Positions 1-35,530 of a DNA stretch of 64,000 nt are shown here, one piece after another (positions within the stretch are counted from its first letter, which is position 1; every line of letters begins with the position of its first letter). This DNA comes from the human T2T-CHM13v2.0 reference genome, Homo sapiens. A program made the position numbers and the translations under genes. The notes below the pieces were generated by a model. The model worked only from the letters and a program-made list of their open reading frames with translations. It ran no database searches and had not been told where the DNA came from. The DNA lies in NCBI GenBank assembly GCA_009914755.4, contig CP086569.2, positions 7,968,001-8,032,000 of the forward strand, read 5' to 3'.

Positions 1-1088
1 TGTCATTCTTACACAAGAACATGGCCTACAAGTAGGGTACTAAATTTCACACAAAAGAGCAGTCAAAGGTTGAAATTTTTCCCCTCATACACGGTTCAAC
101 CCCATGGGTAGTGTGGTGATGCAATATTCAGCCCAACTGTGAGATTGTGACTTTCCTACTGGAACATAATCTTCAAGTGGAACTGGACAACTTATGCATG
201 GATCCTGTTAAGACTGTGAGTCCTCAGCTTTGACTCAACTCACAGGAGATGTTGACTCACATGCACAAAGCCAGGACTTGTGTAGGGCTGTGGAACTTAT
301 TTCTGAATATTTCCAAGTGTGTGATTAGAATGTAGAAGTTAGCCCAGCTCCTGAATAATTTGACTCTCCTTTTTAGGCCATGACCACAGATAAAATTGTG
401 ACATATGTGGACAGTACACCTAAGCAAAGCTTCCTGGGCCTGACTACCAAGGATACTTTTACATATCATTGGGACTAGCATCAAGGTGAGGTGAATTCTT
501 TGTCTTTTCCCTGCCTACAAAAGGCATTGTGGCTTACAGTTAAGTCCATCATATAAGTTCATATAAGTGATGTCACTCCCTTCTAGTGCCTTGGCCCTGC
601 TATTTCAGTTCATTGTGACACATAACTGGGTACTGCACCCAGGTGATATGACTCTCTGTTTAGGGTTCTGCCAGCAGGAAGCTTTGTAACATATCACTTA
701 GCTCAGCACCTAGCTAATGCTTCTTCTCTCTTGCCTTGCTGTGATCAGAGGGGAGACTGTTTCATATTGCTAACCCTAGTGCTGAAGTCATGTCACTTTC
801 ATACCGTGGTTCTGAACATAGTGAACATTGTGACATGTCTAGGCCAATTCCTTAGGTAAAGTGAGTCTCCTCATCCTCTTAAGATTTGCTCACAGGGGGA
901 ATTTTGATTTATCACTAAAACCAGTATCCAGCTGATGTGAGTCTTATTCCAGGGTCCTGCCCACAAGAAAGATTGTGACATCTCACTGGACCAGCACCCA
1001 CCCAAATGATGTGACATTTCTGTTTGTTCTCTGCCCACAGGTCATATTGTGCCATATACCTAACACCACTTAAGATGACTAATCATGA

Positions 1089-1409
1089 ATTTTTTTTTTT
1101 TTTTTTTTTTTTTTTTTTTTTTTTTTTTGAGACGGAGTCTCGCTCTGTCGCCCAGGCTGGAGTGCAGTGGCGGGATCTCGGCTCACTGCAAGCTCCGCCT
1201 CCCGGGTTCACGCCATTCTCCTGCCTCAGCCTCCCGAGTAGCTGGGACTACAGGCACCCGCTACCACGCCCGGCTAATTTTTTGTATTTTTAGTAGAGAC
1301 GGGGTTTCACCGTGTTAGCCAGGATGGTCTCGATCTCCTGACCTCGTGATCCGCCCGCCTCGGCCTCCCAAAGTGCTGGGATTACAGGCATGAGCCACTG
1401 CGCCCAGCC
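1089..1409 (-). mobile_element. AluY-type SINE, full length, young
   Basis: Reverse-complement Alu consensus (gagacggagtctcgctctgtcgcccaggctggagtgcagtgg...ggattacaggcatgagccactgcgcccagcc) follows a 39-nt poly(T) at 1090-1128. Perfect 9-bp TSD taatcatga at 1080-1088 and 1410-1418. CpGs largely retained. Confidence 0.92.
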
Positions 1410-4400
1410 TAATCATGACTTTTAAACCTGGATCCTGGTCATATGCAAGATGGAAACTCCCATTCCTGGAACTTTCCACCAGTGTTATTGTGACATATAC
1501 CTTTGCCCGGCTCCTGAGTGATTTAATAATACTGCCTAATTGTAGCCCTCAAATTCGATTTAGACATATAGTTCATGTGATCACCTTTATGATTTCACTC
1601 TCCTGTTTTAACAATATCTTGCAGAAGGATTGTAACAGATTTCTGGACCCAACATCTAGTTACCTGACACTCCTCTCTTACCTGGACCCTGCTTCCACTA
1701 TGGATTGTAGCATTTCTAAGCACTACCTCCAAATTATATGAATCTCTTGCCTGGTCCTTTCAAGAGGAGACCTTGTGACATATCTCTGGGCTTACCATTT
1801 AGGTGATATGAGTCTCCTCTTCTGCCTGGACACTGCCTACAAGGGGTATTGTGTTATACATGTTGATGTAACCCCTGAGTTATGCAACTTTTCTGCCCAG
1901 AACATGCCTACAAGGAGAATATTGGAAAATTTCTGGCTCAGTATTTAGGTGACTTGTCTGTCATGCCTGTTTCATTACCACAGACTGAATTGTGATATAT
2001 ACCCAAGCACAGCTCACAGGCATGATAATGACTTTCTTATGTGGATCCCACAAATAGAAGTAATTTTGACTCTCATAACTTGCTTTAGAGACATGAGTGA
2101 TTAAATCTCTATCTGGCACCAAAAAAAAAAAAAAAAAACAAACAAAAGGTCAAAGAAGATTATAATGGCCTCACATATTTTATAAAGCCTTTGGCTTGTA
2201 CAGAGTGTCATAACAGAACCCAGCAGAGAGGTGAAATTGTGAGTCTCAAATGCACACCCAGCTGTCACTAAGGTCTAATCACCATCTCACCTATATGAAG
2301 CTAACTGTCACTAATGAAAACAGCACACACGTGATACTGTACACCTCATCAGGGGAATTTTCTGATAGTGTTATTGTGATATAAATCTTTGTTGAGCACC
2401 TGTGTGATTTAATTCTCCATAATTGTTCCAGCCCACATATGTTATTGTCATATCTACCTGGGCCAAACTCTACATGATGTGACTCTCCTGCCTAGGCCCT
2501 GCTCTCAGTAAGAATCATGACTTATTACTACATCCAGCACCTAGGTCATGTTACATCTTTGCCTTAGCCATGCCCAAAGATATTGTTGTGACATATTACC
2601 GTGTCAAATACTTAGGTGATATAACTCTCCTAATTAGAATAAACCCTGCACACATGGGGGATAGTGACATGGTACAGCCAGGCACACAGGTAACAGTACT
2701 CTTGTTAGAGCCATGTCCCAAAGAAAGAATTGTGACAAATCTCTGGGCTGATCACTTAGATTATGTTGCTCTCCTGCTTGGCTCCTGCTTTCCTGAATAG
2801 TGACATATTGCTACACTAGGCCTACAAGTGTTGGTACTCTTTTGCCAGGGTCATGCCTCAAGGAGAATAGGAGAATGTTGTGACATATCTCTGTGCCTAT
2901 CACTTAGGAAATGCTTCAGCATGGCCCACAAAGAGAATTGTGACATAAAGGTAGAATCTACACCTATTTGTTGTAACTCTCTTGTCTGAGTCTTGTCCTA
3001 AGGGAATCTTGTAACGCATCTCAGGAACCAGGATCAAGGTGGTGTGACTCTTCTGCGTGGCTTCACCTCACGTTAGATTTTGTCATATAGCTAGGGAAGC
3101 ACCTATGTGATATGACTCCTCTTCTGCCTGAGCCTTGCTTATTTGGGACATTGGGCCTTATATCTAAGCCAGTATCCTAAGTGATGTAATTCTATTCTTC
3201 TGCCTGAGCCTTTACAATTGGGTGATGTGACATATTGCTAAGCCCAATACTTAGGTTATATGACTCTTCTTTTTTTCCCAAAACATGCCCATGAAAAGGA
3301 ATTTTGACATATTGCATGGCCCAGCACCCAAGTGATGTTCCTCTTCTGCCTGGATCCTGCATAAAAAGAGAGTTATGGCATATTGCTGTGCCCCCCACCA
3401 TGATGCTGTAACCCTCTCCTCTTGCCAGTGCCAGAGCAACAGAAAGTAATTTTACATATCTTGGGCACACCCAGTAGGAATTTTGCTTTCATCATTTGAC
3501 TGTTTTTTTTTTGTTGTTGTTAGTTTGTTTTTAGGTGGGGGGATTGTGTCATATTGCTGAGCCCAGCACCTAGTTAATATAACCCTCATTTCTAGACCCT
3601 ACCTAGAGAATGCATTGTGATCTATTGCTTGGGACAGCACCTCAGTTGTGCTACCCTCTTGACAAGTTTTTTTTCCCCTACAAATGGGATTATGAAATTT
3701 ACATTGATCCAATTCAGAGGCATGTTGATCAAACTTAAACTGGGATTCCACCAATAGTAGGTATTTGCCTATCATCTCTACACTTAGGGTAATAAATTTA
3801 AAATTGTGAGTTGCATATTTGTAGAAAGCTCACAGCAGCTTAGAACACCAACTCATATTATAAAAACTGCTTGGGTGGTACACAGAGTTTTATAACAGGG
3901 CCTAGCAAGAGGTTAAGATTATGACTCTTGATTAGATGTGCAGGTGAGTGCAAATGTTTTCAGCATCCCATATTTACAAAGCCAAATGTTGAAGTCCTGA
4001 GCATAACAAGTAAATAAAGTACAAAATTGAAATTTTGACTTTCATATGTGGTTCTTGTTGTAGGTGAGATGGTGACTATTTTCTGGACCCAGATCACAGG
4101 CATAATAATGGGTCTCCTATCTGAACCCAGACTATTAGACAGATGTTGACAATCATAACCGGGTTTAGGCAATATGTAAGATTGTGAGTGAATATGAGCA
4201 TGTAAGCCCCAGAGTGGTTTGTAACTATCATGTATGTTGCATAAACACTCTGAATGTTGTAGAGTGTGTCATAAAATGACGCAGAACACATGTAAGGTTG
4301 TGACTGTAGTATACACACCAAACTAACAGTTAAAGGTGTAACCTAAAAGATGAAGAGATTGTGTCATATTTCTAGGCCTTGCACCCAGGTGTTAAGAATT

Positions 4401-4434
4401 CTGACTTAAATTCTTTACCATGGGTGCATTGTGA

Positions 4435-34459: not shown

Positions 34460-34757
34460 GTTTTCACAAATCCCACATTTACAATGCCCACTTTTGAAGT
34501 CCTGAATGTAACAAGGAAATAAAGCACAGAGTTGGAATTGTGACTTTTATGTGTTGATCTGCCCACAAGTGGAATAATTAGTCATTTCTGGATCCAGTCC
34601 ACAGACATAATAATAGGTCTTCTGCATTAACTCTGCCTATAGGGGAGATATTGACTATCAAACATGGGTTTTGGACAATATGTAAGATTGTGAGTGCAAT
34701 ATGTAAGATTGTGTGTGCACATACGCCTCAGAGAGGTTGACAATCTTCATGGAGGTG

Positions 34758-35062
34758 TTTTTTTTTTTTTTTTTTTTTCTGTTGGGATGGAGTCTCACTA
34801 TGTCACCCAGGCTGCAGTGCAGTGGGGCAGTCTCAGCTCACTGCAACCTCTGCACTATGACTTCAAGCAATTCTCCTGCCTCAGTCTCCCAAGTAGCTGG
34901 GATTACAGGCCCCTGCCACCATGCCTGGCTAATTTTTTGTATTTTTAGTAGAGATGGAGTTTCACCATCTTGTCCAGGTGGGTCTTGAACTCCTGACCTT
35001 ATGATCTATCCGTCTCACCCTTCCAAAGCGCTGTGAATACAGGCATGAGCCACTGCAACCTA
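34758..35062 (-). mobile_element. Alu SINE (AluS-type)
   Basis: 21-nt poly(T) then ctgttgggatggagtctcactatgtcacccaggctgcagtgcagtgg...aggcatgagccactgcaacc. Probable TSD cttcatg(g/t)aggt at 34745-34757 and 35063-35075. Confidence 0.85.
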
Positions 35063-35530
35063 CCACTTCATGTAGGTTTTATAAAGCCCATGGATATTGT
35101 AGAGAGTGTCATATACTGACCCAGCTCACATGTGAGACTGTGAATCTAATATACACACAGCTAAAAATTAGAAGTATCGACCTGAAAAATGTTGAGATTG
35201 TGTCATGTCACTGGGCCTACTATCCAGATGTTGTGAGATTGTGGCTCTATTTTCTTTCCATGGGTGCATTGTTATGTATTGCTGGGTCAGAATAAAAATA
35301 ATGTGACTTTTCTGCCTGGGCCATGTCAACAGGAGATATTATCACGTATCTCTGGGCCTATCCGCTAGGTGATATGTCTCCCCAGCCTGTGCCCTGCCCC
35401 CAAGTACATTTTGAAATATGGCTGAAACTAGCATCTAGGTAATGAAATTCTCCTCCCCTGCCTGGATACTGCTTACCAAAGGAATTGTGACATACAGCTG
35501 AATGCAAAACCTAGGTGGTATGTCTCTTTT

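What the first reader, a model, noticed from the sequence alone, without database searches (positions are those of the whole stretch)
1..35530. Left arm: modular 3.3-8.4-kb higher-order periodicity with module loss and duplication
Four recognisable multi-hundred-bp landmark modules recur in a fixed order. Module L4 (~350 bp, e.g. 5540-5870) is at ~-100/5540/8880/14450/22860/29680. L2 (..gaaattgtgagtctcaaatgcacacccagctg..) is at 2255/9585/16245/19595/24680/31495. L1 (..aaataaagtacaaagttggaattgtgactttcatatgtgg..) is at 4010/7600/11360/13160/18490/21300/26420/28470/34530. L3 (..tagctgacacaattgtcattctcacacat..agagcctac..aatgagg) is at 5425/8745/14385/22755/29555. Successive L4-to-L4 distances are ~5.6, 3.3, 5.6, 8.4 and 6.8 kb. 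The 3.3-kb unit lacks the L2 block. The 8.4-kb unit carries an extra [L2-L1] pair. The unit starting at 8880 lacks ~1.1 kb present at 480-1900. Paralogous copies are only ~80-85% identical by eye. This looks like an old segmentally amplified block with unequal-crossover variants, not a homogenised satellite higher-order repeat.
Basis: seen in the sequence. Interest (0 to 1): 0.5.

Follow-up and report, generated by a model that had tools for sequence, protein, structure and literature searches.

The report
Old, decayed beta-satellite repeat block
The 35-kb "modular" left arm is an ancient, mutated block of primate beta satellite (about 70-bp units stacked into kb-scale and about 15-kb repeats). 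It sits as one half of an inverted pair around a dead zinc-finger gene exon, an architecture already described for primate zinc-finger gene clusters, so it is real but ordinary.

Summary
All four landmark modules recur at the stated positions and in a fixed order. 97% of the non-transposon bases of 1-35517 have a direct paralog, and the dot plot shows multi-kb stripes.

1. The arm consists of head-to-tail ~71-bp monomers. These are homologous to the canonical 68-bp beta-satellite monomer (79% consensus identity). A profile built only from outside beta satellite hits the window 122 times, 0 times when shuffled. All hits are on one strand in the left arm and on the other strand in the right arm.
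2. The units are organised in tiers. Neighbouring monomers are 56% alike. Block subtypes are ~70% alike. Copies of a ~14-17-kb super-unit are 77-80% alike. The super-unit junction at 1797/19158 explains the "extra L2-L1 pair".
3. Alu and L1 insertions private to single units account for part of the length variation.

The right arm (40.3-51.4 and 60.6-64 kb) mirrors the inner left arm. The 4.8-kb spacer holds the last exon of a ZNF736-like pseudogene.

Paralog identity is 67-80% for blocks (landmark copies 68-82%), not 80-85%. This is a decayed, no longer homogenised beta-satellite higher-order repeat of the kind reported for the 19p12 zinc-finger cluster. It is known biology and of low interest.

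The parts
1..35530 (-). Left arm: diverged beta-satellite array. It runs off the left end of the window. The canonical monomer orientation (GATCAGTGCAGAG...) lies on the minus strand.
   Evidence: 300 monomer hits at E<=1, all on one strand, modal spacing 71 bp. A profile built from external canonical beta satellite hits only the minus strand here. The last monomer is 35485-35530.
1797..19158 (-). Super-unit copy S1 = A1 B1 | C B2 (extra 3.3-kb unit) | C A3 B3 B4 | C A2 B2.
   Evidence: A colinear chain to 19158-35517 at 73-77% identity. The junction is 1797<->19158.
19158..35517 (-). Super-unit copy S2 = A1 B1 | C A3 B3 B4 | C A2 B2. Its start is the 'extra L2-L1 pair' of the 8.4-kb unit.
5540..8889 (-). 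The 3.35-kb unit (C + B2, no A/L2 block), present in S1 only.
   Evidence: 4684-5884 aligns to 8017-9236 at 78%. Its B block groups with 18481 and 34517 (77%). Its C block groups with 8890 and 22880 (76-79%).
1088..1410 (-). AluY with poly-T tail, private to unit 1.
   Evidence: 97% to an AluY consensus recalled from memory. TRF finds T39 at 1090-1128.
21757..22019 (+). Alu, private to unit 4.
   Evidence: Paralog alignments break here.
27721..27989 (-). Old Alu (AluS-like, ~81%), private to unit 5.
   Evidence: The paralog 12651->12678 is continuous where 27689->28031 is interrupted.
33216..34458 (+). L1 3' end with poly-A and target-site duplication AAAAGTTTTCAC, private to unit 6.
   Evidence: Read directly. 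No monomer hits at E<=1 between 32947 and 34538, and only a marginal E=3 hit at relaxed threshold. It matches the L1 at 56-57 kb.
34758..35058 (-). Old Alu with target-site duplication CTTCATG(G/T)AGGT, private to the left arm.
35531..40310 (.). Non-satellite spacer between the inverted arms. It contains Alus, a (TTTC)n repeat and the ZNF exon.
   Evidence: No monomers. TRF. Alus.
38874..40077 (+). Last exon (tether plus C2H2 finger array) of a KRAB-ZNF pseudogene, frameshifted and full of stop codons. No KRAB exons occur anywhere in the window.
   Evidence: Translations. TRF period 84. tblastn with P0001. Best hit is 'zinc finger protein 736 [Callithrix jacchus]', 66% identity over 91% of the query.
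40311..51448 (+). Right arm, inner part: beta satellite in the opposite orientation. From the axis outward it reads B2' A2' C'(truncated) B4' B3' A3' C', mirroring the left-arm units at 22.7-35.5 kb.
51449..60646 (+). Insertion that splits the right arm: an old nuclear copy of mitochondrial DNA, itself interrupted by an L1 fragment (~55.1-57.4 kb).
60647..64000 (+). Right arm, outer part (B3' A3' ...). It runs off the right end of the window.
   Evidence: 23880-27294 aligns to 64000-60646 at 76.5%.

Best explanation
The left arm is a relic beta-satellite array.

Proposed history:
1. A tandem array of ~68-71-bp monomers acquired a kb-scale higher-order unit (C/L3-L4, X, A/L2, B/L1).
2. That unit was amplified and then diverged into subtypes (B1-B4, A1-A3).
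3. Much later, a burst of larger rearrangements copied a ~14-17-kb super-unit in tandem (S1, S2). The same burst added one recombinant 3.3-kb unit and produced an inverted copy, the right arm. This left a palindrome-like structure around a 4.8-kb spacer that carries the last exon of a ZNF736-like pseudogene.
4. Homogenisation then stopped. The copies decayed independently (CpG observed/expected 0.11, GC 41%, Sau3A sites lost) and took up private Alu, L1 and mitochondrial-DNA insertions.

What is shown: the monomer basis, homology to beta satellite, the tiered identities, the junctions, the inverted arm and the private insertions.

What is inferred:
- The order and mechanism of events, meaning unequal crossing-over, tandem segmental duplication and fold-back-type inversion.
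- The age, tens of millions of years.
- The role. Most likely the block is now a methylated, heterochromatin-like spacer with no sequence-specific function. Historically it probably served as a substrate for non-allelic recombination that helped zinc-finger gene clusters expand. That model was proposed for 19p12.
For: Monomer basis:
- TTGTGA spacing peaks at ~70, 140, 215 and 285 bp.
- Iterated nhmmer finds 302 plus-strand monomers, essentially all left of 36 kb (300 of them), and 133 minus-strand monomers, all but two of them in the right arm.
- Modal spacing is 71 bp.

Beta-satellite identity:
- A 20-mer from a published 4qA-distal primer (bioRxiv 10.1101/157040) occurs 13 times with up to 3 mismatches, against 0.05 expected.
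- The same 20-mer retrieved 18 human-contaminant contigs that are pure 68-bp arrays, with GATC-to-GATC spacing peaking at 67-69 bp.
- Their consensus is 54/68 identical to the window consensus (alignment score 75; best shuffled score 15).
- A profile built from 201 of those monomers hits the window 122 times at E<=0.01 and 0 times in a shuffled window. All hits are minus strand in the left arm and plus strand in the right arm.

Higher-order structure:
- Adjacent monomers are 56% alike, the same as random pairs. Each monomer's best match averages 80% identity and is always more than 1 kb away, most often ~15 or ~17 kb.

Tiers:
- B blocks are 77-78% alike within a subtype and ~70% between subtypes. 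A blocks are 77-80.5% within and 70-73% between.
- S1 and S2 form a colinear chain with a sharp junction at 1797/19158.

Age and decay:
- Every Alu and L1 is private to one unit.
- CpG observed/expected is 0.11 and GATC sites are not phased.
- A/T columns of the monomer are better conserved than G/C columns.

Context:
- The ZNF last exon lies in the spacer.
- The literature records a 68-bp beta-satellite monomer organised in higher-order repeats (PMC8125562). [quoted passage not shown]
Against: - Detectable monomers cover only 52% of the arm at E<=1. L1 and parts of L3/L4 give weak or no monomer signal, so some landmark segments could be non-satellite DNA captured before amplification.
- The modal monomer is 71 bp, not 68.
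- The Sau3A site and GC-richness of classical beta satellite are absent.
- Chromosomal location could not be determined. The nearest ZNF names (ZNF736/679/716/735) point to the chromosome 7 pericentromeric cluster rather than 19p12, where this architecture was published.
- Identities for tandem and inverted copies are equal within ~1%. The order of those events is therefore unresolved.
- The details of Eichler 1998 (about 25-kb inverted blocks, about 50 million years) are from my memory of its abstract. The paper could not be opened.
Confidence: 0.88

Rival explanations
1. One reading: an old segmental amplification of an ordinary (non-satellite) multi-kb block, with unequal-crossover variants and no satellite basis.
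For: - Copies are only 67-80% identical and differ by kb-scale indels.
- TRF finds no short-period array in the arm.
- About half of the arm gives no monomer hit at E<=1.
Against: - 300 phased head-to-tail monomers with 71-bp spacing, all on one strand.
- An externally built beta-satellite profile hits throughout the arm.
- Even L4 shows weak monomers in ~70-bp phase.
Confidence: 0.05
2. A composite repeat: beta-satellite stretches alternating with captured non-satellite segments (as in LSau/D4Z4-type 'beta-composite' arrays or an old transposon fragment). The landmarks L1 and L3 would be the non-satellite parts, and the whole composite was then amplified.
For: - Recurrent ~400-600-bp gaps without monomer hits coincide with L1 and L3/L4.
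- Beta-composite arrays with LSau are known (bioRxiv 10.1101/2021.07.12.452052).
Against: - The gaps are short.
- L4 retains phased weak monomers, and the quoted L1 string itself contains the ATTGTGAC monomer core.
- No 3.3-kb LSau-like GC-rich unit or DUX reading frame was seen. GC is 0.38-0.44 throughout and no ORF exceeds 147 aa.
- No repeat library was available to test directly for transposon origin.
Confidence: 0.06
3. A still-homogenising satellite higher-order repeat, or an assembly artefact that collapses or duplicates similar reads.
For: Repeats of this kind are error-prone in assemblies.
Against: - Copies differ by 20-33%, far too much for mis-assembly or ongoing concerted evolution.
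- Each copy carries private Alu/L1 insertions with target-site duplications.
Confidence: 0.01

Closest known systems
Beta-satellite blocks of the human 19p12 KRAB zinc-finger cluster (Eichler et al. 1998, Genome Res 8:791, PMID 9724325)
   Same: - Diverged beta satellite with kb-scale higher-order structure.
- Tens-of-kb blocks in inverted orientation.
- Direct association with ZNF91-type zinc-finger gene or pseudogene sequence.
- Old age, indicated by private retroposon insertions.
   Different: - Location is unknown. The pseudogene's nearest relatives carry names of the chromosome 7 pericentromeric cluster (ZNF736/679/716/735).
- Here the arms flank only a lone last exon in a 4.8-kb spacer, not a whole 150-180-kb duplicon.
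Canonical beta satellite (Sau3A family; pB3/pB4 arrays on acrocentric chromosomes, chr1, chr9, chrY, and 4qA distal to D4Z4)
   Same: - Homologous monomer: 79% consensus identity, with the same ATATGTCACAAT and TCACATCACCT cores.
- Head-to-tail arrays with higher-order periodicity.
   Different: - Modal monomer is 71 bp rather than 68.
- No conserved GATC site.
- GC is 41% and CpG is almost gone.
- Neighbouring monomers are 56% alike, against TRF match values of 71-84% in the contaminant contigs.
- Higher-order copies are 67-80% alike and not homogenised.
- The setting is euchromatic or peri-genic.
Diverged monomeric or 'dead' higher-order layers of alpha satellite flanking active centromere arrays
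   Same: The same evolutionary logic: a former higher-order array that left the homogenising core, decays, inverts and accumulates transposon insertions.
   Different: A different satellite family and monomer size (171 bp against ~70 bp). There is no centromere context here.

Membership tests
Beta satellite (BSR/Sau3A family) | Tandem head-to-tail monomers of ~68 bp | tested here: met
   300 monomers in 1-35.5 kb, all on one strand. Adjacent spacing is modal at 71 bp, with 189 of 299 intervals between 66 and 75 bp. The monomer is slightly longer than the canonical 68 bp.
Beta satellite (BSR/Sau3A family) | Sequence homology to the canonical monomer | tested here: met
   - The canonical consensus was derived with TRF from 18 contaminant contigs (period 68; GATC-to-GATC spacing peaks at 67-69 bp).
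- The window consensus is 54/68 identical to it.
- A profile of 201 canonical monomers gives 122 hits at E<=0.01 and 0 in a shuffled window.
Beta satellite (BSR/Sau3A family) | One Sau3A (GATC) site per monomer, giving a 68-bp ladder | tested here: not met
   There are 83 GATC sites in 35.5 kb, fewer than base composition predicts (~130), with no preferred phase in the monomer. I interpret this as decay of an old copy.
Beta satellite (BSR/Sau3A family) | G+C-rich composition | tested here: not met
   GC is 0.41 and CpG observed/expected is 0.11 in the arms. G/C columns of the monomer are the least conserved.
Beta satellite (BSR/Sau3A family) | Multimeric higher-order repeat organisation | tested here: met
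   Neighbouring monomers are 56% alike. Each monomer's best match averages 80% and is always more than 1 kb away. Blocks are 67-80% alike.
ZNF-cluster beta-satellite blocks of the 19p12 type | Large blocks in inverted orientation with a symmetrical higher-order structure | tested here: met
   - The left arm is at least 35.5 kb. The right arm is at least 14.5 kb of satellite.
- The block order B2 A2 C B4 B3 A3 C is mirrored about the spacer.
- Symmetry covers only the inner ~12.6 kb.
ZNF-cluster beta-satellite blocks of the 19p12 type | Physical association with KRAB-ZNF genes of the ZNF91-related group | tested here: met
   The last exon of a ZNF pseudogene lies at 38874-40077 between the arms. 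The best hit is marmoset 'ZNF736' at 66% identity.
ZNF-cluster beta-satellite blocks of the 19p12 type | Location in 19p12 | not testable with these tools
   No primate genome was available to search. The nearest ZNF names belong to the 7q11.21/7p11 cluster, so the locus may lie on chromosome 7.

The most novel reading that the evidence does not exclude
The window may not be the published 19p12 locus. It may instead be a chromosome 7 pericentromeric ZNF-cluster locus that carries the same typed beta-satellite scaffold (A1-A3, B1-B4 super-unit). On this reading, the near-equal identities of the tandem, inverted and extra-unit copies (77-80%) record one burst, for example a fold-back or breakage-type event. 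That event would have placed a ZNF last exon at the centre of a satellite palindrome. If the same block subtypes occur in 19p12, satellite scaffolds moved together with ZNF genes when the chromosome 7 cluster was founded. Satellite-mediated expansion of the family would then be datable block by block.
Probability: 0.15. Interest if true: 0.4.

Novelty: already known. Interest (0 to 1): 0.2.

Why it matters
This block illustrates how a satellite array looks long after it leaves the homogenising regime. It keeps a nested hierarchy of periodicities, has lost its restriction sites and CpGs, and carries private retroposon and mitochondrial-DNA insertions. Such blocks are thought to have supplied the recombination substrate and heterochromatic setting for the expansion of primate KRAB zinc-finger clusters. 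None of this is new. The practical value is for annotation. The 'modules' should be labelled diverged beta satellite, not a novel segmental amplification. Unit-length differences should be corrected for transposon insertions before any inference about crossover history.

Tried and rejected
- TRF on the window finds no short-period array in the arms. The monomers are too diverged, so motif spacing and iterated nhmmer were needed.
- A first fuzzy-regex Alu search timed out and was replaced by blastn.
- Eichler 1998 and Waye & Willard 1989 could not be opened.
- Two of three full-text searches for beta-satellite sequence strings found nothing relevant. The third found only a primer.
- The look-up of encoding contigs had no record for the marmoset ZNF736 protein, so no orthologous locus could be fetched.
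- Coding or structured-RNA explanations for the arm were rejected. There is no ORF above 147 aa in the arm and no Rfam family in the arm.
- A shared Alu between the mirrored arm tips was considered, because both Alus lie next to the terminal 440 bp. It was rejected. They have the same absolute orientation, sit ~130 bp apart in equivalent coordinates, and the left one has its own target-site duplication.
- Per-column monomer conservation was examined for a possible protein-binding core. The apparent 100% at the model ends is a local-alignment edge effect, and the remaining pattern fits GC-to-AT decay.
Translation with the mitochondrial code was used instead.

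
Full report
**What the window is.** The sequence is primate. It contains a 97% AluY and eight older Alus, and an L1 3' end. TRF reports an 84-bp period at 39146-39936, which is a C2H2 zinc-finger array full of frameshifts and stop codons.

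**Check of the observation.**
- blastn of reference copies of the four landmarks recovers every claimed copy in the fixed order L3-L4-(L2)-L1.
- L4-to-L4 distances are 5428, 3350, 5565, 8425 and 6810 bp.
- The self-alignment and 1-kb dot plot show multi-kb direct stripes across 1-35 kb. They show inverted stripes against 40-52 and 60-64 kb.
- 96.9% of the non-transposon bases of 1-35517 have a direct paralog, with a median of 5 copies. 82% have an inverted paralog in the right arm.
- Corrections:
  - The first L4 copy is at +112, not -100.
  - The L3 copy near 14385 is truncated.
  - Identities are 67-82%, not 80-85%.

**What the modules are made of.**
- The hexamer TTGTGA is strongly strand-biased. 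Its spacing peaks at ~70, 140, 215 and 285 bp.
- Seventeen seed monomers align well.
- Iterated nhmmer gives a 70-bp consensus: TTGTGACATATTTCTGGGCCCAGCACCTAGGTGATGTGACTCTCCTGCCTGGGCCCTGCCCACAGGAGAA.
- It finds 302 plus-strand monomers, essentially all left of 36 kb, and 133 minus-strand monomers, all but two of them in 40.3-51.4 and 60.6-64 kb.
- Adjacent monomers in the left arm are spaced 71 bp apart (mode; second mode 74-76).
- Detectable monomers cover 52% of the arm. The recurrent gaps coincide with L1 and L3/L4, which is probably why those stood out as landmarks. L4 still shows weak monomers in ~70-bp phase.

**Which satellite.**
- A 20-mer taken from a published primer that lies distal to pLAM on 4qA (bioRxiv 10.1101/157040) occurs 13 times in the window with up to 3 mismatches, against 0.05 expected. 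Strand polarity matches the arms.
- An exact scan of the bacterial/archaeal genome collection for that 20-mer returned 18 short, low-coverage contigs from unrelated taxa.
- TRF shows these contigs to be pure 68-bp arrays. Their consensus is GATCAGTGCAGAGATATGTCACAATGCCCCTGTAGGCAGAGCCTAGACAAGAGTTACATCACCTGGGT, and their GATC-to-GATC spacing peaks at 67-69 bp.
- These features fit the published definition of beta satellite: a 68-bp monomer, the Sau3A family, and higher-order repeats (PMC8125562; PMC3488192). The contigs are evidently human contamination.
- The window consensus is 54/68 identical to this monomer. The alignment score is 75, against a maximum of 15 for shuffles.
- A profile built only from 201 contaminant-contig monomers hits the window 122 times at E<=0.01 and a shuffled window 0 times. 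All hits in 1-36 kb are on the minus strand. All hits in 40-52 and 60-64 kb are on the plus strand.
- The arms are therefore diverged beta satellite in opposite orientations.
- Two classical features are not met. There is no phased GATC site, and the arms are not GC-rich (GC 0.41, CpG observed/expected 0.11). G/C columns of the monomer are the least conserved. I read this as mutational decay.

**Higher-order structure, in tiers.**
- Neighbouring monomers are 56% identical, the same as random pairs. Each monomer's best match averages 80%. That match is always more than 1 kb away, most often ~15 kb (57 monomers) or ~17 kb (30 monomers).
- The twelve L1-containing B blocks fall into four subtypes. 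Identity is 77-78% within a subtype and ~70% between subtypes.
  - B1 = {4012, 21295}
  - B2 = {7596, 18481, 34517}
  - B3 = {11345, 26409, R47296, R61521}
  - B4 = {13154, 28467, R45694}
- The eight L2-containing A blocks fall into three subtypes. Identity is 77-80.5% within a subtype and 70-73% between subtypes.
  - A1 = {2200, 19537}
  - A3 = {9526, 24628, R63270}
  - A2 = {16195, 31442, R43262}
- The left arm therefore reads C A1 B1 | C B2 | C A3 B3 B4 | C A2 B2 | A1 B1 | C A3 B3 B4 | C A2 B2.
- That is two copies of a super-unit: S1 (1797-19158) and S2 (19158-35517). They form a colinear chain at 73-77% identity with a sharp junction at 1797<->19158.
- S1 contains one additional recombinant 3.35-kb unit (C + B2, no A).
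- The end of S2 coincides with the inner edge of the arm.

**Transposon insertions.** Unit lengths are also altered by private insertions.
- AluY with its tail, 1088-1410.
- Alus at 21757-22019, 27721-27989 and 34758-35058.
- An L1 3' end at 33216-34458 with a target-site duplication.
- None is shared by a paralogous unit.
- Two old Alus lie near the mirrored arm tips. They have the same absolute orientation and are ~130 bp apart in equivalent coordinates, so they inserted independently.

**The wider structure.**
- The right arm mirrors the inner left arm. From the axis outward it reads B2' A2' C'(truncated) B4' B3' A3' C'. It corresponds to 22.7-35.5 kb of the left arm, and the inner edges 35517 and 40571 correspond. 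A few more monomers of mixed orientation extend inward to 40311.
- Beyond that point the arms differ. The right arm repeats the C A3 B3 B4 unit.
- Left-right identities (77-80.5%) equal the S1-S2 identities. The tandem and inverted duplications are therefore about the same age.
- The 4.8-kb spacer contains the last exon of a KRAB-ZNF pseudogene at 38874-40077. No KRAB exons occur in the window.
- Its best database match is 'zinc finger protein 736 [Callithrix jacchus]' at 66% identity over 91% of the query. Weaker hits include proteins named ZNF736-like, ZNF679, ZNF716 and ZNF735.
- ZNF736 and ZNF679 are listed in 7q11.21 (PMC7886492). That cluster is primate-specific and dynamic (PMC3126818).

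**Comparison with what is known.**
[quoted passage not shown] 1998).
- The complex beta-satellite architecture around the Y-chromosomal DUXY genes has been likened to the 19p12 zinc finger cluster (PMC2671837).
- From my memory of the Eichler abstract (the paper could not be opened), ~25-kb inverted beta-satellite blocks with a symmetrical higher-order structure bound each ZNF duplicon, and the cluster is ~50 million years old.
- The present window matches that description, except that its location is unknown and may be chromosome 7.
- Age here is an inference. It rests on 20-23% pairwise divergence of the youngest copies and on private AluS- and AluJ-like insertions. Subfamily calls use consensus sequences recalled from memory.

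**Verdict.** It misses that this is a decayed beta-satellite higher-order repeat with a super-unit and an inverted partner. This is known biology. Interest is low.

Noticed in passing
window 51449-60646: An old nuclear copy of mitochondrial DNA (NUMT) splits the right satellite arm. Satellite monomers stop at 51448 and resume at 60647.
- Strongly negative GC skew over most of the insertion.
- A cytochrome b-like frame under the mitochondrial code from ~52.15 kb.
- A control-region hit at 53221-53332.
- 12S rRNA at 54553-55124 and 57444-57892.
- 16S rRNA at 58758-59388.
- A tRNA at 59512-59585 (+), and tRNA-Gln at 60024-60098 (-).
The order is colinear with mtDNA from ~14.2 kb through the D-loop to ~4.4 kb. 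Identity to human mtDNA (recalled from memory) is 75-78%. Evidence.
   Followed up: partly
window ~55100-57440: An L1 fragment lies inside the mitochondrial insertion. A 314-aa minus-strand ORF at 55697-56641 matches Pfam RVT_1 (E 1e-28). The stretch at 56-57 kb matches the plus-strand L1 3' end at 33-34 kb. The two pieces are in opposite orientation, as expected for a twin-priming inversion.
   Followed up: partly
loci L001-L018 (GTDB bacterial/archaeal assemblies): Eighteen short, low-coverage contigs deposited under unrelated bacterial and archaeal names are pure canonical 68-bp human beta satellite. The names include Limosilactobacillus, Actinomadura, Mycobacterium, Streptomyces, Legionella, Campylobacter and a Woesearchaeota MAG. 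These contigs are human contamination in the assemblies.
   Followed up: yes
window 38874-40077: A non-processed ZNF pseudogene consisting of the last exon only, with what looks like a splice acceptor (tttttcag) just upstream. It is closest to marmoset 'ZNF736' (66% identity), which suggests a chromosome 7 pericentromeric ZNF family rather than 19p12.
   Followed up: partly
monomer consensus (whole arms): The ~70-bp monomer looks like an internal dimer of two ~33-37-bp halves, each containing TGTGAC...CTGGGCCC. I do not know whether this has been described for beta satellite.
   Followed up: no
window 34786-35056 and 41137-41410: Two old Alus sit within ~130 bp of mirror-equivalent positions at the inner tips of the two arms. 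Both are on the minus strand. They are independent insertions, not a shared one.
   Followed up: yes
window 40311-40571: At the inner edge of the right arm, monomer orientation switches locally. Monomers at 40311-40448 are minus, one at 40491-40559 is plus, and the arm proper (minus in the window-derived model) begins at 40571.
   Followed up: no
window 4460-4678 and 37880-38101: A TA-rich compound microsatellite is private to unit 1. A (TTTC)n tract of ~210 bp lies in the spacer.
   Followed up: no
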